From: a virus | Lineage: Duplodnaviria; Heunggongvirae; Uroviricota; Caudoviricetes | Strand: one strand, 5' to 3' | Length of the DNA: 64,000 nt | IMG/VR virus record: IMGVR_UViG_2684622670_000009 | Coordinates: 20,476-84,475 of that record | Shown here: positions 3,105-50,010 of the stretch, one piece after another | Layout of the letters: each line of letters begins with the position of its first letter | How positions within the stretch are numbered: the first letter of the stretch is position 1 | The notes under the pieces: model-generated | What the model saw: only the letters and a program-made list of their open reading frames with translations | What the model was told of the DNA's origin: nothing | The model's database searches: none | Position numbers and translations under genes: made by a program

Positions 3105-4148
3105 TTATCTAACGCTCGACGAGTGACTTGTGATAGCGCCGACTCCAAGCGCGTAATCAAAGAACAATCGTTGATGCATCGCCAGCCTACCGTGCGTCTT
3201 CTCCCAATTATCGCGGTCACGCTCAATATCACGCTGGCATGACTGGCACAGAGGAATTGCGTAAATGTCATGCGCGCATAATCGACTATGACGAACGATA
3301 TAAGGCGTAATGTGAGCGCCAGCTCCCGCCGCTCCACACCCACAGCATGGACGGGAAGCAACAAAGTCCATGTACTCAGGTAATTTTAGCGATTGCAGTT
3401 TTGGTATTTTGAAATGCGCCATGCCAGGGTCGGAGTCAACATCCACAGGGCATACTTTTGCACGCATCAGCGCGGCGCGTTCTTCCATCATCTGAACATA
3501 TGCTGTAGCGCGATCGTCATACGGGCGAATATCCGCCTCTTTCAGAGGTCCGCTATCCTGCGTTGCGGCTTTCATCTTATTTATTGATATACGGCAAACT
3601 TCTTCCGGCATCAGGTGCATCATGTTGCGCATGAAAGCCCACCAGCACAGTTCCTGAATACTTAAATCATGGCCATCTGAAAGCCCCATTTCCTGACGGG
3701 CGACATCCAGTATCCAGTTAACGCGATTATTATGCAGCGTTTCTTTCAGCTCATTAAAACCACGCATCCGGTAATGGTTATCGTGATGCCAGCACAACAA
3801 CACCGCGCTATTGTCTCGTTCTGCGTGGACAATATGGTTGTCACACCAGCTACGATCTGCGGCCTGGCATTGCCCCTCTTTCCTGCGCAACCACGCCAAC
3901 AGCGAGTCAATTCCACCAATACGGCGAAACAGTTCATCGCTGTTAAAAAACGGCTGCAACGCCTCATTTGTTGCCATGGTTTGCTCGGTAACAACGAGGC
4001 CGTCTTCCATGTGCTCGATTAACTCACGCGGCACCGGCTCCATAATAAATTTACGGCCAGCCTCCACCAGCTTTCTGACCTCCTGATCCACTTTGAACGT
4101 GGCGAGGCCAAGCTCTTTCTGTACAAAGGGAGTAATTACGGCTTTCAC
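3105..4148 (-). CDS. pdcB: Cys/His-rich protein at the P1 pdcB (post-doc) position
   Basis: 347-aa ORF with CCGCG and CQSC clusters. Assigned by synteny doc-pdcA-pdcB-lpa. Confidence 0.6.
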
Positions 4149-11465: not shown

Positions 11466-11482
11466 AGATTTATTAGAGCAAT
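11466..11482 (-). promoter_or_regulatory. C1 operator at the pap 3' end
   Basis: Minus strand ATTGCTCTAATAAATCT (16/17 to consensus). Overlaps the pap stop codon. Confidence 0.65.
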
Positions 11483-24479: not shown

Positions 24480-24760
24480 TAACACTCCACCCTGGTGTGT
24501 TGAATGTCAGATATAATCGGCATACTCAAATCACTCCTAACGATATGAGTCATCACCAGAAAATCAGGATTAATGCGCCGGACTCTTCCCGGCTGTCACA
24601 CCGAATCGCCAGGATGGTGAATCCGCAGTCCGACGCTATGAACGGGGCTTGCACATTCCGGCTACCTGGTTTGTTGCCTGAGCTAGGGGAAAAGGTAACC
24701 CCTTTAACGTCACCAGACCGCTAACGACGCATGTGCCAGACGCCGTGTTACAACCAAATG

Positions 24761-24836
24761 TGGTGACCCCTACCGGACTTGAACCGGTGACCGTGCGATT
24801 ATGAGTCGCCAGCTCTAACCACTGAGCTAAAGGGCC
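24761..24836 (-). tRNA. trnI: tRNA-Ile2 type (anticodon CAU, ileX-like)
   Basis: GGCCCTTTAGCTCAGTGGTTAGAGCTGGCGACTCATAATCGCACGGTCACCGGTTCAAGTCCGGTAGGGGTCACCA. Full cloverleaf, encoded CCA, close to E. coli ileX. Confidence 0.85.
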
Positions 24837-24839
24837 GGA

Positions 24840-24947
24840 TTACTGTTTCCTAAGTGCTTCAATGGCGCTAACAACGCCGCCTACAACTATGGCAACAATG
24901 ATAATGAGAACAATTGGATACTTGTCAGCAAAATCCCAGAAGCCCAT
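24840..24947 (-). CDS. 35-aa membrane peptide (P1 tciC position)
   Basis: MGFWDFADKYPIVLIIIVAIVVGGVVSAIEALRKQ. Its ATG overlaps the stop of the upstream small gene. Confidence 0.5.
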   Translation of the reverse strand: MGFWDFADKYPIVLIIIVAIVVGGVVSAIEALRKQ

Positions 24948-25111
24948 CACTGATCCTTCGAAGCTGTTTTAAATATCGGCCATACCAATGTTACAGCCAC
25001 TGCCACCAACGCCCCGTCCGATAAAACTGACAGGATTGTGCTGGTGAAATCCACCAGCACGGACAGCAAGAGAAAACCAATGGCGATTGCGATACGTGCC
25101 TTGCTTGCCAT
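24947..25111 (-). CDS. 54-aa membrane protein (P1 tciB position)
   Basis: MASKARIAIAIGFLLLSVLVDFTSTILSVLSDGALVAVAVTLVWPIFKTASKDQ. TAATG overlap with tciA. Confidence 0.5.
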   Translation of the reverse strand: MASKARIAIAIGFLLLSVLVDFTSTILSVLSDGALVAVAVTLVWPIFKTASKDQ

Positions 25112-25545
25112 TACAGATAATCTTCCACACGAAGACCTAAACGACGGCCTACTTCTTCCAGTACTTTGTGTTCTGCTGGCTCGATTTCACCGTCCGCTTC
25201 TGCAATCGTCAGCATGTTAACGAATACTTCTTCCGCTTCTTTTGGGTCGTTTTTGATATCTTCAATTTCGCGAAGGATATTCATGCGACCAACACGGAAG
25301 CCAGCTTCCAGTTGCTCGGTAAAGCGGGTAATTGTTGCGGTAATTTCGTTACCAAAATGACTAAGACGCGGATTAGAGCGGATAAGCTGATCAAGTTTCG
25401 CTGTTTCTTCTTTTTTGATTTCACCATCAGCGGCAGACACCAACAAACAGCCACCGATAATGGCCTCCATCAGATCGCGATTCTCAACTTTTTTCAGCTC
25501 TACTTTTGCAGAAGCGACTTTCTTGCCGAACAATTTACCGAACAT
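25111..25545 (-). CDS. tciA: TerB-family tellurite-resistance-like protein TciA
   Basis: 144 aa with two ADGEI repeats characteristic of TerB. Confidence 0.8.
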   Translation of the reverse strand: MFGKLFGKKVASAKVELKKVENRDLMEAIIGGCLLVSAADGEIKKEETAKLDQLIRSNPRLSHFGNEITATITRFTEQLEAGFRVGRMNILREIEDIKNDPKEAEEVFVNMLTIAEADGEIEPAEHKVLEEVGRRLGLRVEDYL

Positions 25546-25694
25546 TGGTTATCCCTCAATAAAAGTGACATATTTATTAGATTGCGGTGCCGGGTGCCTC
25601 CCGGTGACGTTAACCAGTTAACAATTAACGCCGGAATGTTTAATCATCAAGGAGGATTGTTTTAACTGTTCCGCGTGCGCTTAGCCGAATTCAC

Positions 25695-25806
25695 CGCAAT
25701 GGTAAGAGCACTTGGCTGGCTGGGCGGCGATGACGCCTGTACGCATTTGGTGATCCGGTTCTGCTTCCGGCATTCGCTTAATTAGCCAAATACTCTTAAC
25801 GTTGCG
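25695..25806 (-). repeat. Long-hairpin module D (degenerate copy), immediately 3' of tRNA-Ser
   Basis: 5' arm CGCAACGTTAAGAGTATTTGG pairs with 3' arm CCAAGTGCTCTTACCATTGCG. The arms are homologous to modules A-C. An internal CCGG-AAGCAGAA-CCGG hairpin is present. Confidence 0.45.
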
Positions 25807-25807
25807 C

Positions 25808-25894
25808 TGGTGGAGAGTAATGGAATCGAACCATCATCGCTTGCGCAATGGGACGGTTTTCAAGACCGCTTGAGCGCCATACTCCCTACTCTCC
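25808..25894 (-). tRNA. tRNA-Ser (anticodon UGA), type II with a long variable arm
   Basis: 87 nt. Acceptor GGAGAGT/ACTCTCC; anticodon arm GCGGT-CTTGAAA-ACCGT; variable arm ATTGC-GCAA-GCGAT; T arm GATGG-TTCGATT-CCATT; encoded CCA. Confidence 0.8.
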
Positions 25895-26047
25895 AATGAT
25901 TGTGGTGGTCGGTGCTGATCTCCGACTGCGCCTCTTTTTTTCATAGCCCATAAGGCCGGTCAGTGCGCTTGATGACTGAGGCATCGATATTTACTACGCC
26001 GCCTCGTTGCCATAGGGCGGACTTGCGCGCCAGCAACGCGCATTCAC

Positions 26048-26134
26048 CACAACGGAAAGAGCATTCACGTCTCGCATCGCGGGAAAAAGCCCACGGTAGA
26101 GAGTCGAACTCTACAAATGCTCTTACCTGTTGTG
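26048..26134 (-). repeat. Long-hairpin module A (87 nt)
   Basis: CACAACAGGTAAGAGCATT...AATGCTCTTTCCGTTGTG. Contains a T-arm-like GTAGAG-TTCGACT-CTCTAC hairpin. Confidence 0.55.
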
Positions 26135-26262
26135 TTGTGATGACCGGTGCTGATCTCCGGCTTGCGGTTATTTCAGACTCTCACGGGCGTTTAATTGCCC
26201 CGCCGGACAGCTCTTTTCCGCAATAGCTGCAATGTCTTTCGCGCATCAGCCTGCGCATTCAT

Positions 26263-26349
26263 CACAACGGTAAGGGTACTTCGGAGGGATTCGAACCCTC
26301 TGCCAAGCTCGGCGATCTCCGACGTCGCAAAATACCCTTACCTGTTGTG
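26263..26349 (-). repeat. Long-hairpin module B (87 nt), immediately 3' of the tRNA-like gene
   Basis: CACAACAGGTAAGGGTATTTTG...CGAAGTACCCTTACCGTTGTG, a stem of about 21 bp with one bulged A. Contains GAGGG-TTCGAAT-CCCTC. Confidence 0.55.
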
Positions 26350-26350
26350 C

Positions 26351-26483
26351 TGGTGCCGGTTAACGGATTCGAACCGCTGACCTCTGGCCTAACATCGAAT
26401 CGTTGTCATTTGACCAGCAAGGCTGTCTACCGAAGTAGAAACGATGCTTTGGCTCTCGTGCTCTCCCACTGAGCTAAACCGGC
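26351..26483 (-). ncRNA. tRNA-like gene (Thr-type scaffold) with a ~57-nt insert replacing the anticodon arm
   Basis: GCCGGTT-TA-GCTC-AGTGGGA-GAGC-A...AGGTC-AGCGG-TTCGAAT-CCGTT-AACCGGC-A-CCA. Total length is 133 nt. The insert holds a TCTAC-TTCG-GTAGA hairpin and CATCG/CGATG pairing. I could not fold a canonical 7-nt anticodon loop. Confidence 0.5.
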
Positions 26484-26485
26484 AT

Positions 26486-26561
26486 TGGCGATGGTGGGTG
26501 GATTCGAACCACCGACCAGTTAGTTAACAGCCAACTGCTCTAACCGCTGAGCTACACCATC
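26486..26561 (-). tRNA. trnA: tRNA-Asn (anticodon GUU)
   Basis: GATGGTGTAGCTCAGCGGTTAGAGCAGTTGGCTGTTAACTAACTGGTCGGTGGTTCGAATCCACCCACCATCGCCA. Perfect cloverleaf. Confidence 0.9.
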
Positions 26562-26764
26562 ACTTGCCGGGTACGTCTCCGGCGAGGGCTTCCACCTCCG
26601 TATGCTTTTCGGCGCACCGCGCCCTGGCTGCAATTCGGTAACAGGGGATGCATAACCCTGGCTTCCAGCGTGATTAGCGCTTTCAGCATGACGGGATATA
26701 CCCGTAAATTCGTGGAACTGTACCCAAAGTGCTGTTAAGCACCGCTGTTACGCTGAAAAGAAGA

Positions 26765-26845
26765 CGCAACAGGAAAGGACGCTGACCAACAGATGGCCCC
26801 TTCTCGTTCATCTGGTTAATCACACCAGCGCCCTTACCTGTTGTG
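26765..26845 (-). repeat. Long-hairpin module C (81 nt)
   Basis: CACAACAGGTAAGGGCGCTG...CAGCGTCCTTTCCTGTTGCG. The variable stem part covaries relative to modules A and B. Confidence 0.5.
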
Positions 26846-27026
26846 CCTCCCCGTTCCCTAATACACAGACGGGGACACTCTGCGGTCGATTTTTTGACGG
26901 GGGACGACTCATACCCCGTGGCGTCTGGCTTCTTAGGCCGCAGCCATCATCAGATCATCGTTTGCATTTACTTTAATGGTCAGTTTCTAAACCGCCGCAA
27001 AGTCGCTAACCATGACGAAAACCCTG

Positions 27027-27051
27027 AAAAAACGCCCACCCGAAGATGGGC
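27027..27051 (-). terminator. Strong rho-independent terminator
   Basis: Minus strand GCCCATC-TTCG-GGTGGGC followed by GTTTTTT. Confidence 0.8.
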
Positions 27052-27213
27052 AAACAGGATGTAAGCTCGTTACGCATTTCGGTATTGCCACTTAGGCGTA
27101 TGGTCAACCTGGCAACTCGGCGTCATGAGGGGGAAGGAGTCACTACCCCGCCATACTTGCCGCCGCGCCTGTCGCGGCTAACAGCTAAATCGCTCTATAA
27201 ATCACGATTCATT
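27052..27213 (-). ncRNA. Candidate C1-regulated structured RNA (~185 nt including the terminator)
   Basis: Lies between a predicted sigma70 promoter and the terminator. Several GC-rich hairpins (GCCGCG/CGCGGC, TTGCCA/TGGCAA). Only tiny ORFs without SD. Confidence 0.4.
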
Positions 27214-27219
27214 GAAACC

Positions 27220-27249
27220 ATATTACACTAATAAATTTATTAGAGCAAT
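27220..27249 (-). promoter_or_regulatory. Bivalent C1 operator overlapping a sigma70 promoter
   Basis: Perfect ATTGCTCTAATAAATTT on the minus strand (27249-27233). An inverted, overlapping ATTACACTAATAAATTT sits on the plus strand (27222-27238). Promoter: -35 TTGCTC (27248-27243), 17-nt spacer, -10 TAATAT (27225-27220). Confidence 0.7.
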
Positions 27250-30200
27250 ATAGCAATAACGTCATGAGCTACACCACGAGTGTTCCCCTTACAAGACACA
27301 GAACGTCTGGCAAAAAGAGGTTCCACTCTGAAGCCACTGTCTTGGTAAAGCTCCCTGATGTTTGGCGCACCACTATTAGTAATGAGGATCTTTGCACCTC
27401 GGCGATGAGCATCCATTAGCAGAGATACCAGGCGTTTTTGCTCTTCAAACTTAAAGTCATGACCGGAATAGTTTGTGAACCCCTCTGTATTGGGGAGCGG
27501 TTCATACGGAGGATCGCAAAAGATGACATCTCCTTCTCCGGCAGCTTCAATCACCGCTGAAAAATCACCACATACAAACTCAGAACGCCCTTCAGCACCG
27601 AGGAAGGCTTCCATCTCCTGTAATGGGAAATACGGAGTTTTATACTTCCCATAACCAACATTAAACTCACCGGCCTGGTTGTAACGCGTCAATCCGTTAA
27701 AACAATGTCGGTTCAGGAACAAAAACGCTGCTGCACGATGTAAATCATCATAGGCTTGTTTGTTAAACGCATTCCGTACTGCCAGGTATCCTTCCTGTGT
27801 GTTGTAGTCCTGGAAAAACCGATGCGCCAGAGTGATAAGTGAATGTCCCTCACGTTGCAGAGTCCTGTAAAAGTTAATCAGGTCAGCATTCACATCATTT
27901 AGCAGATTTTCTTGATATCCGGCATTTATGAAGACAGCTCCGCCACCAACGAAAGGCTCGATCAGGCGCTTTCCGTCAGGTAAATGCCTAAAGATTTGTT
28001 CAAGAACACCAAATTTTCCGCCGACCCATTTAAATATGGGACGGTCAAATTCTGCCGTTAGCTTAACTCTCCGTTCTGTTGCTTCATGATTTTTTGCCTG
28101 CTGATATGCAGCCTTAATAATCCGCTCACCAATCCATCGCATTACTGGTATCGCCATGCTATTGCCGATCGCTTTGTAACGCGGTCCGTCAGCTGCAAGC
28201 ATCGCGGCCTCTTCTTCGCTTAAATCTGGATAGTGATTGCGAAGGTATGCCAGTTCATCTGAAGTAACTTTTTTACGCTTTTCCGTCGGGATCAACGTAT
28301 GCCCATCAGGAAAACCTTGCAGTCTTTCACATTCGACAGGGGTAAGACGGCGGACAGCTACTGCTGCGTTTCCTACGTCATAGCAAACGGCTGTTGTATT
28401 TTTGGCCATTAAAGATGGTGAAGTATTCTTAGTTGCAGCATGTTGTGTACCGCTCATACGCTCAGGAAAAGCCAATGTAACAAGATGCTCATGGCTTTCT
28501 TGCTCACGTGCCCGCAATGTACCATGCCCTTCTGACCAAAAACCTGCTCCTGTGCTGCTAAAAACTGCAAGGTCAGTGGCATCTTTAAAGTCTCTCGCCT
28601 TTACTGTCGATGCGGTTTCATCGCCAATATATTCCCCAAATGCCGCCATCCTGAAAGCGTTTACGGCTTTCGTCGATTTCATACCGGGGGTAATGTCAGC
28701 GTGTAGGCATGGATTTAGGCTTTCGCCACTGATTGCAGCGCCATTTGCAATAATGGCGGAAGCGATTTCCTTCTTTTTTCGGCTCGGCGCAATATTCCGG
28801 CGCACGCCTTCGAACTCAAAAAGTACCGTTGCGGGATCGAGGTCTGTTCGAGCACTTGCGACAACAAACACGCGTCGGCGTCGTTGTGCCACTCCGAAGT
28901 ATTGGGCATCAAGGATTCTCCAGGCCACCTTTCGCTGCGGTCCATAAATACAACCACACTGCGGCCACTTTGGAGCATGGCAACCGGTTTTGCCATCCCA
29001 CCGCCAGAACGCGTTACTTTTTCCTGATTCAGGTCGATCACCTGGTTCAAATGGCGCATCTTCTCCAGCCAATCCGGCAAGGAAACATCCGAAGGCGTTA
29101 TCTGCCGATGACAAGACTCCTGGGACATTTTCCCAGACGATAACGGCTGGTTTGAGAAATGACTCAGCCCGTTTGTCGTCAATTGCATTTGCAAGCTCCA
29201 CATACTTTAAAGTTAGCGCGCCACGCTCATCATCAAGCCCACCACGTAATCCCGCGATACTGAATGCCTGACAGTTATGGACCACCGCACCATTGAGGAT
29301 ATAGGAATGATCACCTTCGACTTCTATGTTGTATACAGTATCTAGGCCTACCGATTTAAACTCTTTGACTGTTCGTAAAAGCATTCCATGAGCCAATCTT
29401 GATTTACGTGACAATTTCTGCGGGCAGATTGTTACCTGATAATAATTCCGTTGATTTACCACGCGATCCTCGATCACTTTTTTGGGCTCAACTTCAATAA
29501 AGCTGACCGAAGAAACATAACCACAAGTCTGTGACACCCCCGCAACGCCCCAAGCAAGCGCAGGACTAACACTATTAATTCTAAATCCCGCTTTACCACT
29601 TGGTGTCCCATCAGTATCAAGATAGCCTTGTAAAAACACATGACGCAATGGATGCGACATCACCCATGCAGGGATACGCTTAGCATGGCTTAACTCGCCA
29701 AAATGTTCATTAAGCCAATTGGCATAACACGTATCATTCAAGGTTACTTTGATGCTCCCTCGGATTTCTCTTGCCACGGAAAATATGTTTTCTGGTATGC
29801 GACAATGAAACTTTCTCAATTTCTGGCAATTTATGCCAAAAACAACCGCCTTCTTAGATTTACCTCTCCATCTCCTAATATATCCATCGCCAACATAAGC
29901 GCCCGCAAGATACATAGCCTGTTCTTCAGACAAGAACCGAGAACAAATATCTGGAGATGCAATATTGAAATTAGTTAGAGCGCACCATTGATATCCTGGC
30001 ATATCACATGCTGCTCGCCATTCCGGTTCAGACAACAACTCTCTCTTAAAATATGTGCCATTTTTCCGGGTGTTTTGGGCTTTCCACCGAACAGCCAGGA
30101 AGGGATGGTCATTGGTTGTTCTTATACCTAAAGGCTGCCCAACGGCATTAAGTAACCCCGTATTAGCTATTTTTGAACCAACTCTTTTTACTTGTTGTAA

Positions 30201-31779: not shown

Positions 31780-31796
31780 ATATTTATTAGTGCAAT
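31780..31796 (-). promoter_or_regulatory. C1 operator upstream of uhr-hrdC-dmt
   Basis: Minus strand ATTGCACTAATAAATAT (15/17). Confidence 0.55.
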
Positions 31797-47842: not shown

Positions 47843-47859
47843 AAATTTATTAGAGCAAA
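47843..47859 (-). promoter_or_regulatory. C1 operator (Op53 position) controlling kilA-repL
   Basis: Minus strand TTTGCTCTAATAAATTT (16/17). Confidence 0.7.
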
Positions 47860-49993: not shown

Positions 49994-50010
49994 AAATTTA
50001 TTAGAGCATT
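49994..50010 (-). promoter_or_regulatory. C1 operator (Op51 position) of the immI operon
   Basis: Minus strand AATGCTCTAATAAATTT (16/17). Confidence 0.7.

What the first reader, a model, noticed from the sequence alone, without database searches (positions are those of the whole stretch)
27027..27249. C1-operator-embedded promoter driving a ~185-nt structured, terminated RNA at the 3' end of dmt
A perfect C1 operator (27249-27233, minus) overlaps an inverted 15/17 copy (27222-27238), forming a palindromic bivalent operator. The -35 TTGCTC lies inside the operator, and a 17-nt spacer leads to the -10 TAATAT. Transcription would start near 27213 and meet a strong terminator (GCCCATC-TTCG-GGTGGGC-T6) at 27051-27027. 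The intervening RNA is GC-rich and hairpin-dense and has only 3-17-codon ORFs without SD. It is either a repressor-controlled sRNA or a leader/attenuator gating the downstream tRNA/hairpin locus.
Basis: seen in the sequence. Interest (0 to 1): 0.55.

Follow-up and report, generated by a model that had tools for sequence, protein, structure and literature searches.

The report
P1 ban promoter with DicF-like leader
This is the already-annotated, repressor-controlled promoter of the phage P1/P7 ban operon; the short terminated RNA it should make is laid out like the 190-nt long form of the E. coli prophage small RNA DicF and shares a conserved, probably pseudoknotted 5' domain that the RNA family database Rfam does not list.

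Summary
The window is a P1/P7-like phage-plasmid. The operator pair and promoter at 27220-27249(-) match Op72ab/Obanab and P1ban base for base in the P1 GenBank record. The 3' half of the predicted RNA is annotated there as a 'dicF-like region'. Downstream lie tRNAs, tciA/B and ban, so this is the ban operon leader.

The new part is what the ~187-nt RNA is made of. It has a 5' hairpin, then a 105-nt element I call X (27180-27076), then a 49-nt tail. The tail has a U-rich stretch, a GC hairpin and U6. X is about 82% identical to the sequence just upstream of DicF in the Qin prophage and occurs in 4412 of 5426 complete E. coli genomes. Its helices covary, and it has a probable pseudoknot. It matches no Rfam family and is not a detectable relative of the HK022 put RNA. 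Almost every copy is followed by a variable, terminator-ended module, of which DicF is one.

Published Northern blots show a 190-nt DicF species, which by length is X plus DicF. The P1/P7 RNA has the same layout, with its 5' end set by the C1-controlled promoter. It is most likely both an sRNA precursor and the leaky leader of the ban operon. Its function is untested.

The parts
27233..27249 (-). C1 operator Oban-a (former Op72a), a perfect 17-mer ATTGCTCTAATAAATTT. It contains the -35 hexamer and the dmt stop codon.
   Evidence: 0 mismatches. It corresponds to the protein_bind feature Obana in P1 AF234172. It is near-invariant in 11 distinct P1-like variants.
27222..27238 (+). C1 operator Oban-b (former Op72b), an inverted 15/17 copy overlapping Oban-a. 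It covers four bases of the -10 hexamer.
   Evidence: 2 mismatches. P1 annotation Obanb, the bivalent operator Obanab.
27243..27248 (-). -35 hexamer TTGCTC of P1ban
   Evidence: Sequence. Same position relative to the operator as minus_35_signal P1ban in AF234172.
27220..27225 (-). -10 hexamer TAATAT of P1ban, after a 17-nt spacer. The predicted start is the A at 27213.
   Evidence: Sequence. minus_10_signal P1ban in AF234172. The start site is inferred, not mapped here.
27240..29507 (-). dmt, a bifunctional Dam-type N6-adenine plus C5-cytosine DNA methyltransferase. Its stop codon lies inside the operator. No terminator lies between dmt and the RNA, so dmt transcripts also run into it.
   Evidence: Pfam MethyltransfD12 4e-57 and DNA_methylase 1e-22. 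P1 dmt annotation.
27186..27211 (-). 5' terminal hairpin of the predicted primary transcript
   Evidence: -6.5 kcal/mol against -1.8 +/- 1.5 for shuffles, z = -3.1. Invariant among P1-like variants except one loop base.
27076..27180 (-). Element X, the conserved structured domain shared with the sequence upstream of DicF. Its helices are hairpin P1 (27178-27173 with 27167-27162), hairpin P2 (27149-27146 with 27133-27130), helix S2 (27118-27110 with 27090-27082) and pseudoknot S1 (GUAUGG 27156-27151 with CCAUAC 27103-27098).
   Evidence: Covariance model R1 scores 94.5 bits, E 7e-20. blastn to Qin and 4412 of 5426 E. coli genomes. Covariation counts. No Rfam family.
27052..27075 (-). Spacer or candidate seed, largely unstructured, ending in GUUU just 5' of the terminator stem. 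It is the likely region of endonucleolytic processing, by analogy with DicF.
   Evidence: Fold. The UUUG motif sits before the stem in nearly all 11 module types. It differs between P1 and P7 by substitutions and a 4-nt indel.
27027..27051 (-). Intrinsic terminator and Hfq-module-like 3' end: GCCCAUC-UUCG-GGUGGGC, then G and U6
   Evidence: Identical in P1.
25583..25698 (-). STnc100-like long hairpin directly upstream of tciA. It is homologous to the dicF-dicB spacer of Qin and is the downstream flank of the same ancestral cassette.
   Evidence: Rfam RF02076 at 50.3 bits, above the gathering score of 47. Alignment to Qin.
23115..26561 (-). Rest of the ban operon reached by read-through: tRNA-Asn 26486-26561, tRNA-Ser(TGA) 25808-25894, tciA 25111-25545, tciB 24947-25111, tRNA(CAT) 24761-24836 and ban 23115-24485.
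   Evidence: ARAGORN. Pfam TerB, DUF3927, DnaB and DnaB_C. Synteny with P1.

Best explanation
The locus is the Op72ab (Obanab) operator and P1ban promoter of a P1/P7-like phage-plasmid, followed by the first 187 nt of the ban operon transcript.

Shown or annotated: C1 repressor sites overlap both promoter hexamers, so the promoter should be off in the lysogen.

Inferred: when C1 is inactivated, transcription starts near 27213. The nascent RNA forms a 5' hairpin and then element X, a conserved domain of four helices that probably includes a pseudoknot. RNA polymerase then meets a canonical intrinsic terminator at 27051-27027. Most transcripts stop there and yield a ~187-nt RNA. A fraction read through into the tRNAs, tciA/B and ban.

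The 187-nt RNA has the same layout as the experimentally observed 190-nt DicF species of the Qin prophage, which by length is X plus spacer plus DicF. In Qin, RNase III makes the 5' end of that species and RNase E trims it to the 53-nt sRNA. In P1/P7 the promoter itself sets the 5' end, and the 3' module is a different sequence with the same architecture (U-rich stretch, GC hairpin, U tail).

I therefore expect a C1-controlled long RNA and probably a shorter processed form of about 50 nt that binds Hfq and acts in trans. X would serve as the stable 5' domain of the precursor. The target of the short RNA and the biochemical role of X are unknown.
For: Identity of the control region: the window is 93% identical to P1 over 2.5 kb and 96% in column identity over the 880-nt aligned stretch. 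The P1 record annotates 'sigma 70 promoter P1ban', the divalent operator Obanab (Op72ab) and a 'dicF-like region' at the homologous positions. The operator is perfect and is conserved in 11 distinct P1-like variants while its flanks vary. The locus occurs in 478 PLSDB plasmids.

Operon: the tRNAs and the TerB, DUF3927 and DnaB-like genes lie downstream on the same strand.

Homology to the DicF precursor: RNA nt 39-131 match the ydfC-dicB spacer of Qin at about 82% identity, and matches occur in 4412 of 5426 E. coli genomes. The Qin match ends 30 nt before DicF, which lies at L002 3122-3173. Model R1 finds X once in each of 99 loci at 89-128 bits.

Structure: 95.1% of cells are paired, against 36-51% when partners are slid. 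Eight pairs change on both sides, against 2.8 +/- 1.1 in shuffles (1 of 500 shuffles reach this). The Izhakiella copy carries three compensatory pairs in S2.

Cassette architecture: 136 of 142 pattern matches are followed within 43-125 nt by a hairpin plus T-run, and these fall into 11 module types. Three of the six exceptions are chance matches in GC-rich genomes, two have terminator hairpins longer than my detection window, and one is a decayed Shigella copy.

Published transcripts: 190-nt and 53-nt DicF species are seen on Northern blots. The 190-nt form depends on RNase III and accumulates without RNase E (PMC10448788). 190 nt back from the DicF 3' end is about 9 nt upstream of X.

The window also keeps the other flank of the Qin cassette, the STnc100-like element, directly upstream of tciA.
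Against: No transcript mapping is available for P1 or P7 at this locus. The two P1vir transcriptome papers I could read do not mention it.

The promoter hexamers are weak by consensus, 7 of 12.

The 3' module is not DicF by Rfam, with no hit at E <= 1. It shows no excess complementarity to the ftsZ translation start, although the DicF positive control was only marginal in that test. It also shows no significant complementarity to the rest of the window.

The spacer or 'seed' differs between P1 and P7 by several substitutions and a 4-nt indel. That is not what a conserved trans-acting seed would show.

Support for pseudoknot S1 rests on one covarying pair (UA 50, UG 3, CG 2). A targeted search for compensated variants at two other positions found none.

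The whole ban operon scored non-essential in a P1 CRISPRi screen (PMC10695390), so any phenotype may be subtle.
Confidence: 0.7

Rival explanations
1. Pure cis-acting leader. The terminated RNA has no function of its own. The terminator throttles ban operon expression, and X is a cis-acting RNA that modifies RNA polymerase or the termination decision, working like the HK022 put RNA, so that some polymerases reach the tRNAs and ban.
For: In lambdoid phages X lies in the untranslated leader of the early-left operon, downstream of the repressor gene and upstream of dicB, kil or exo. This is the position held by nutL or putL. No N-like antiterminator was recognised among the neighbouring ORFs. X is always just upstream of an intrinsic terminator that must be passed to express the downstream genes. 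From my own knowledge, not a tool result: P1 bac-1 operator mutants express ban from this promoter, so read-through occurs. The unpaired stretches of X are almost invariant, as expected for a surface that contacts a protein or polymerase.
Against: Model R1 does not match HK022 putL or putR, or HK639 putL: the putL region scores 0.6 bits, E 3.9 with filters off. The put architecture of two stem-loops differs from X. An antiterminator placed directly before a terminator that is conserved in every module type is hard to reconcile with the terminated 53-nt and 190-nt DicF species actually observed. Partial read-through of a normal terminator needs no special element.
Confidence: 0.2
2. The element mainly serves dmt. 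X plus the terminator is the 3' UTR and terminator of the dmt mRNA and protects it from 3' exonucleases. Pban transcripts merely start inside this 3' UTR.
For: The dmt stop codon lies inside the operator, and no terminator lies between dmt and 27027. Every dmt transcript must therefore contain X and end at, or pass, this terminator.
Against: X occurs in hundreds of lambdoid prophages with no dmt upstream. The conserved partner of X is the downstream terminator module, not the upstream gene. The operator and promoter are conserved independently.
Confidence: 0.07
3. X is a ligand- or factor-sensing aptamer, and the variable terminator is its expression platform, as in a riboswitch-type attenuator.
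For: A conserved structured domain followed by a sequence-variable terminator is the classical riboswitch layout.
Against: No Rfam aptamer class matches. By inspection of the module types I found no conserved alternative pairing between the 3' strand of X and the 5' arm of the terminator. The gap between X and the terminator T-run varies from 43 to 125 nt. In Qin the X-DicF RNA is a stable, processed species.
Confidence: 0.05
4. The region encodes small proteins on the opposite strand: the 61-aa ORF at 27046-27231(+) and the 73-aa ORF at 26843-27064(+), which some phage records annotate as 'hypothetical protein'.
For: ORFs of 61 and 73 aa exist on the + strand. 'Hypothetical protein' is annotated under the match in JL22, SJ46 and several lambdoid phages.
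Against: Neither ORF has a Pfam match. Substitutions in the region preserve RNA base pairs. Indels of 1-7 nt in the P2 loop would shift any reading frame.
Confidence: 0.02

Closest known systems
Op72ab (Obanab) operator and P1ban promoter of phage P1, the control region of the ban operon (GenBank AF234172 annotation; Lurz et al. 1987 and Lobocka et al. 2004 cited from memory, not readable here)
   Same: Same position at the 3' end of dmt. The same perfect 17-mer and the same 15/17 inverted partner, the same -35 and -10 with a 17-nt spacer, and the same downstream gene order.
   Different: Nothing essential. The window is closer to P7 than to P1 in the transcribed part: 95.9% against 85.9% over 196 nt. 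It is 100% identical over 241 nt to an Escherichia albertii plasmid.
Long (190-nt) form of DicF from the dicBF operon of the Qin prophage (Faubladier et al. 1990 as cited in, and confirmed by, Ragunathan et al. 2023, PMC10448788)
   Same: Same order of parts and almost the same length: short 5' extension, X, spacer, then a hairpin with a U tail. X is about 82% identical. Both sit in a repressor-controlled phage operon, upstream of genes annotated as affecting cell division (dicB in Qin, tciA in P1). Both loci keep the STnc100-like hairpin before the first downstream gene.
   Different: In Qin the 5' end is cut out of a polycistronic RNA by RNase III; here a promoter sits 33 nt upstream of X. 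The 3' module is unrelated in sequence to DicF, with no RF00039 hit. About 1.3 kb of non-coding RNA and tRNA genes separates the terminator from the STnc100-like element.
DicF sRNA proper (Rfam RF00039): a 53-nt, Hfq-dependent regulator of ftsZ, xylR and pykA
   Same: Same slot in the cassette. Same 3' architecture of a UUUG stretch, GC hairpin and U run.
   Different: Different sequence. No match to the family model and no detectable ftsZ complementarity. It is not a member of the family.
HK022/HK639 put RNAs, cis-acting antiterminator RNAs
   Same: A promoter-proximal structured RNA in an early phage operon, upstream of terminators. A few short words are shared (GCGCGGCGG, ACCAUGCG, CAGGNUGA), seen by eye.
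   Different: No significant similarity under the X covariance model. put has two stem-loops and no pseudoknot. X is always followed immediately by a terminator that is known to work in Qin.
Promoter-proximal terminated phage transcripts that double as sRNAs, such as StxS from PR'-tR' of Stx phages, and the P1 c4 RNA processed from the immI operon (both from my own knowledge, not checked here)
   Same: A short RNA released from the start of, or from within, a long phage operon transcript by termination or processing.
   Different: StxS is made constitutively in the lysogen, whereas Pban is repressed there. c4 is antisense to a target in its own operon, and no such target was found here.

Membership tests
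P1-type C1-controlled operator/promoter (Op72ab-P1ban) | 17-bp asymmetric C1 operator matching ATTGCTCTAATAAATTT | tested here: met
   0 mismatches at 27233-27249(-). The window has 12 sites with at most 3 mismatches, against 0.39 expected.
P1-type C1-controlled operator/promoter (Op72ab-P1ban) | Bivalent arrangement: a second, overlapping, inverted operator | tested here: met
   27222-27238(+), 2 mismatches, 6-bp overlap. Same as Obana/Obanb in AF234172.
P1-type C1-controlled operator/promoter (Op72ab-P1ban) | Position and synteny: at the dmt stop codon, upstream of the tRNAs, tciABC and ban | tested here: met
P1-type C1-controlled operator/promoter (Op72ab-P1ban) | Binding by C1 (with Bof) and repression of a transcript starting a few nt after the -10 | not testable with these tools
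   Needs footprinting, reporter assays or transcript mapping. The P1 record lists the promoter without the word 'predicted'.
DicF RNA (Rfam RF00039) | Match to the family covariance model at or above the gathering score (48 bits) | tested here: not met
   No DicF hit at E <= 1 in 25000-28500. The same search scores 76.7 bits in Qin and in mEp460.
DicF RNA (Rfam RF00039) | Base-pairing potential with the ftsZ translation initiation region | tested here: inconclusive
   The duplex energy is no better than shuffles for the P7 and P1 modules (fraction of shuffles at or below observed: 0.96 and 0.93). The DicF control was itself only marginal at 0.087, so the test has little power.
DicF-type cassette (X + variable module + terminator, as in the 190-nt DicF species) | Element X present immediately upstream, on the same strand | tested here: met
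   R1 scores 94.5 bits at 27180-27076. blastn to Qin.
DicF-type cassette (X + variable module + terminator, as in the 190-nt DicF species) | Intrinsic terminator within about 125 nt after X, preceded by a U-rich stretch | tested here: met
   Terminator at 27051-27027, with GUUU before the stem.
DicF-type cassette (X + variable module + terminator, as in the 190-nt DicF species) | RNase III / RNase E processing into long and short species; Hfq binding | not testable with these tools
   Shown for Qin only (PMC10448788).
HK022-type put antiterminator RNA | Sequence and structure similarity to putL/putR (two stem-loops of about 70 nt) | tested here: not met
   R1 gives 0.6 bits, E 3.9 over putL with filters off, and no hit on HK639 putL. 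Rfam has no put family to test the reverse direction.
HK022-type put antiterminator RNA | Suppression of downstream terminators in cis, dependent on the RNA polymerase beta' zinc-binding domain | not testable with these tools
   Needs transcription assays.
Known riboswitch or ribozyme classes | Match to any curated structured-RNA family | tested here: not met
   No Rfam 15 family covers X in the window or in five other contexts.

The most novel reading that the evidence does not exclude
Element X is an undescribed, widespread structured RNA domain of about 105 nt. It has four helices, probably including a pseudoknot, and near-invariant unpaired stretches. It occurs in about 80% of complete E. 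coli genomes and in P1-like phage-plasmids. It would have an active role of its own: for example setting the ratio of termination to read-through at the adjacent terminator, or acting as a docking and stability platform that licenses interchangeable sRNA modules such as DicF. On this reading the P1/P7 RNA would be the one case where X sits at a defined, repressor-controlled 5' end, which makes it the cleanest system for testing that role.
Probability: 0.3. Interest if true: 0.6.

Novelty: already known. Interest (0 to 1): 0.33.

Why it matters
The promoter/operator adds nothing new: it is the textbook control region of the P1 ban operon.

The value lies in the link between two literatures. The P1 label 'dicF-like region' turns out to reflect similarity to the sequence upstream of DicF, not to DicF itself. 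That sequence is a conserved structured domain, X, that forms the body of the 190-nt DicF species seen on Northern blots.

X carries at least 11 different terminator-ended modules in enterobacterial prophages and phage-plasmids. If X has an activity in stabilisation, processing or termination control, this would explain how toxic early-operon genes behind a terminator (dicB, kil, tciA, ban) are dosed. It would also explain how phages swap sRNA 'payloads' on a common chassis.

P1/P7 offer a thermo-inducible, plasmid-borne version with a defined 5' end for testing this.

Tried and rejected
1. Rfam scans of the window region and of five homologous loci found nothing over X or the P1/P7 module. 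Weak hits (RefB11, mir-465, tmRNA_permuted) are chance-level.

2. put homology. I located HK022 putL (L009 713->640) and HK639 putL (L130 34312->34187) and noticed shared short words. The X covariance model gives no signal, so I rejected membership.

3. A local hairpin GUC-AGGUU-GAC, resembling the apex of put stem II, is broken by the U-to-C change in P1/P7. That change is compensated in S2 instead, so I rejected the hairpin.

4. An alternative helix GGYAA/UUGYC, predicted by RNAfold for the window, is contradicted by the L030 and Izhakiella variants, which compensate in S2.

5. I searched IMG/VR directly for compensated S1 variants (patterns GAYTAT and GATCAT). The result was 0 hits and 1 chance hit, so S1 rests on a single covarying pair.

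6. P2-loop to 3'-flank pairing (UCCUU with GAGGA) holds in some variants and fails in others, so I did not adopt it. The loops are nevertheless pyrimidine-rich, and 15 of 21 distinct loops contain UCCU or CUCC.

7. Target prediction found no signal against the ftsZ leader or for k-mer complementarity within the 64-kb window: one 13-mer, one 12-mer and four 11-mers, about as expected by chance. Genome-wide host target prediction was not possible with the data held.

8. I looked for a riboswitch-type antiterminator pairing by inspection and found no conserved one.

9. Literature. Lobocka 2004 and Faubladier & Bouche 1994 are not held. No held paper discusses the P1 dicF-like RNA.

10. Folding energy of the whole RNA is not distinguishable from shuffles.
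Full report
What the window is. A 2.5-kb stretch around the finding is 93% identical to phage P1 and its relatives. The annotated features under the match are dmt, a 'dicF-like region', tRNA-Asn and tRNA-Thr. Over the 196 nt of the predicted RNA the closest phage is P7, at 95.9% against 85.9% for P1. An Escherichia albertii 99.8-kb plasmid is 100% identical over 241 nt, and 478 PLSDB plasmids carry the locus. The window is therefore a P1/P7-like phage-plasmid.

Checking the observation.
- The perfect C1 operator ATTGCTCTAATAAATTT lies at 27233-27249(-). An inverted 15/17 copy lies at 27222-27238(+). The window has 12 sites with at most 3 mismatches, against 0.39 expected.
- TTGCTC (27248-27243) and TAATAT (27225-27220) are 17 nt apart, and an A at 27213 is 7 nt downstream.
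- The terminator GCCCAUC-UUCG-GGUGGGC-G-U6 occupies 27051-27027.
- The dmt stop codon is inside the operator.

Two qualifications apply. First, the hexamers match the consensus at only 7 of 12 positions and were missed by the generic scan. Second, the 187-nt RNA folds no better than shuffled sequence (z = -0.82) and is only mildly GC-rich (52.9% against 46.8%).

It is a known control region. The P1 record AF234172 annotates, at the homologous positions, 'sigma 70 promoter P1ban' with the same -35 and -10. It also annotates the 'divalent C1-controlled operator Obanab; corresponds to former Op72ab; controls expression of ban' and, 95-196 nt downstream of the -10, a 'dicF-like region'. The window and P1 align with 96% column identity over the 880-nt stretch compared. 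Downstream on the same strand lie tRNA-Asn, tRNA-Ser, a TerB-family tciA, a DUF3927 tciB, a tRNA with anticodon CAT and a DnaB-like ban. Among 11 distinct P1-like variants the operator/promoter core and the 5' hairpin of the transcript are essentially invariant, while the last dmt codons and the discriminator vary.

What the RNA is made of. blastn of the RNA against 5,426 complete E. coli genomes finds nt 39-131 at about 82% identity in 4,412 genomes, with a median of two copies and up to eight. In K-12 the match lies in the ydfC-dicB spacer of the Qin prophage. It ends 30 nt before DicF itself, which Rfam places at L002 3122-3173 with 76.7 bits. The P1 label 'dicF-like' therefore reflects similarity to the sequence upstream of DicF, not to DicF. 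Rfam finds no DicF in the window even at E <= 1.

I aligned the window, P1, Qin, an O157 prophage, mEp460, phage cdtI, Salmonella phage F1055 and an Actinobacillus phage. The alignment shows a conserved core of about 105 nt, which I call element X. In every case X is followed by a variable short module that ends in an intrinsic terminator.

Structure of X. I collected X copies from IMG/VR and from one genome per species. True copies come from Escherichia, Shigella, Citrobacter, Trabulsiella, Erwinia and Izhakiella; the other genome hits are chance matches in GC-rich DNA. I built covariance model R1 from 36 diverse copies. R1 finds the window's X at 27180-27076 with 94.5 bits, and one X in each of 99 loci.

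On the resulting alignment of 55 distinct rows, I counted pairs for four helices: P1, P2, S2, and a pseudoknot S1 between GUAUGG and the CCAUAC inside the S2 loop.
- 95.1% of cells are paired, against 36-51% when partners are slid.
- Eight pairs change on both sides, against 2.8 +/- 1.1 in shuffles (1 of 500 shuffles reach this).
- S2 has five covarying pairs. The Izhakiella copy alone carries three compensations (GGGUAACCA/UGGUUACCC).
- P2 has two covarying pairs.
- S1 has one, with the series U-A, U-G, C-G.

Three caveats apply. My fishing patterns fixed GGCGCGGCGG and CAGGTTGACC, so those columns cannot vary. The sequences are related, so the shuffle control is lenient. A direct search for compensated S1 variants found none. 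I regard P2 and S2 as established and S1 as probable. No Rfam family matches X in any context.

The cassette. Of 142 pattern matches with enough downstream sequence, 136 have a hairpin plus T-run within 43-125 nt. Of the six exceptions, three are chance matches, two have terminator hairpins longer than my detection window, and one is a decayed Shigella copy. The modules fall into 11 sequence types. DicF is the commonest, and the P1/P7 type is the most divergent. Nearly all have UUUG just before the stem, then a GC-rich stem, then five or more U. From my own knowledge, this is the architecture described for Hfq-binding modules.

In lambdoid phages the cassette sits in the untranslated leader of the early-left operon, downstream of the repressor gene and upstream of dicB, kil or exo-type genes. 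It is followed by the long STnc100-type hairpin. The window retains that hairpin too, at 25583-25698 directly upstream of tciA (50.3 bits). The P1 ban leader therefore looks like a dicBF-type leader into which about 1.3 kb of non-coding RNA and tRNA genes has been inserted.

Link to experiment. Ragunathan et al. 2023 (PMC10448788) confirm Faubladier et al. 1990. On Northern blots DicF appears as a 190-nt and a 53-nt species. The 190-nt form has an RNase III-made 5' end, disappears in an rnc mutant and accumulates when RNase E is inactivated. RNase E makes the 53-nt form. Their Figure S1 prints the sequence of the region, which contains X. Counting 190 nt back from the DicF 3' end lands about 9 nt upstream of the R1 match. 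The 190-nt species is therefore X plus a 20-nt spacer plus DicF.

The RNA predicted here runs from 27213 to 27027. It consists of a 33-nt leader with a 5' hairpin (z = -3.1), the 105-nt X and a 49-nt module, 187 nt in all. The two RNAs have the same order of parts. The difference is that P1/P7 put a repressor-controlled promoter where Qin uses an RNase III cut.

Most likely mechanism.
- Shown or annotated: C1 operators cover both hexamers; a canonical terminator follows X; the operon continues to ban.
- Inferred: derepression gives a ~187-nt terminated RNA, which by analogy with DicF is probably trimmed in the AU-containing spacer to an Hfq-type RNA of about 50 nt. A minority of polymerases read through. 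From my own knowledge, P1 bac-1 operator mutants express ban, which implies read-through.
- Also inferred: because no terminator separates dmt from X, dmt transcripts can feed the same pathway.
- Unknown: the target and the role of X.

The P1 and P7 spacers differ by several substitutions and a 4-nt indel. I found no complementarity signal to ftsZ (a weak test) or to the rest of the window. The ban operon genes scored non-essential in a P1 CRISPRi screen (PMC10695390).

Rivals. The main rival is that the short RNA is only a by-product and that X is a cis-acting modulator of termination, working like put. In favour are X's position, the absence of a recognisable N-like gene nearby, its invariant unpaired stretches, and the need to pass the terminator. 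Against are the lack of any detectable similarity to put, a different architecture, and the fact that the adjacent terminator demonstrably works in Qin. I also considered a dmt 3'-UTR stabiliser, a riboswitch-like sensor and opposite-strand small proteins, and rate all three unlikely for the reasons given with each rival.

Verdict. The control region is already known, and the RNA is already flagged in the P1 annotation. What this analysis adds is the anatomy: a conserved, probably pseudoknotted domain absent from Rfam, a family of interchangeable terminator-ended modules, and the equivalence with the 190-nt DicF species. Overall interest is modest. The open question worth testing is what X does.

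Noticed in passing
window 26954-27010 (-), extending to about 26917-27023: The first ~110 nt after the terminator match 251 phage records from unrelated groups at 72-88% identity. These include 157-kb Klebsiella, Salmonella and Shigella phages, ~47-kb T1-like phages, HK620, Bp4-like phages, Cronobacter CS01 and a Vibrio phage, and the region is almost always unannotated. In HK620 the match lies between PR'/qut and the late terminator tQ. In CS01 it lies in a 380-nt gap between small ORFs, about 600 nt upstream of the terminase genes. The core sequence is CATGGTTAGCGACTTTGCGGCGGTTTAGAAACTGACCATTAAAGTAAATGCAAACGA. Rfam gives only a chance-level tmRNA_permuted hit. This may be a widespread undescribed phage non-coding RNA.
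   Followed up: partly
window 26562-27026 (-): The whole 465-nt non-coding stretch between the terminator and tRNA-Asn is 98-99% identical among P1, JL22 and the window. It is more conserved than element X or the 3' end of dmt. It has no Rfam match and no convincing ORF.
   Followed up: partly
window 25583-25698 (-): An STnc100-family element (50.3 bits, gathering score 47) lies directly upstream of tciA. It is homologous to the dicF-dicB spacer of Qin. In Qin this long hairpin sits where published work places the RNase III cut that makes the 72-nt DicF 3' end; that link is my inference.
   Followed up: partly
window about 26400-26485 (-), just after tRNA-Asn: P1 has tRNA-Thr two bases after tRNA-Asn. 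The window keeps only about 25 nt resembling the 5' part of that tRNA and then diverges (end of alignment A1). ARAGORN calls no tRNA there, and instead finds a tRNA-Ser(TGA) at 25808-25894 that is not among the tRNAs annotated in the homologous stretch of P1 (Asn, Thr, Ile). A recombination breakpoint probably lies inside a tRNA gene.
   Followed up: no
window 11466-11482, 13557-13573/13606-13622, 16323-16339, 17230-17246, 31780-31796, 47843-47859, 49994-50010: These are further matches to the C1 operator with 1-3 mismatches, on both strands. They are presumably the other C1-controlled operators of the phage.
   Followed up: no
element X, P2 loop (window 27145-27134; A4 columns 38-51): The stem of hairpin P2 varies freely with compensation, but its loop stays pyrimidine-rich (64-100%). 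Fifteen of 21 distinct loops contain UCCU or CUCC, which is anti-Shine-Dalgarno-like. A pairing with a downstream GAGGA holds in some variants but not in all.
   Followed up: partly
L002 2978-2986 and about 3211-3219 (Qin): By eye, CGUGCGCUU just upstream of the inferred 5' end of the 190-nt DicF is complementary to GAGCGCACG in the STnc100 element downstream of DicF. Such long-range pairing could form the RNase III substrate. The window has no equivalent upstream sequence, which fits with a promoter replacing the cut (sequence).
   Followed up: no
L152, L184, L188, L199, L006 (Trabulsiella, Erwinia, Izhakiella, Salmonella phage F1055): In these copies the module after X is longer. Its terminator hairpin encloses a GGAGG-type Shine-Dalgarno sequence and an ATG. 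The short reading frames are not conserved between species, so the conservation is probably at the RNA level.
   Followed up: no
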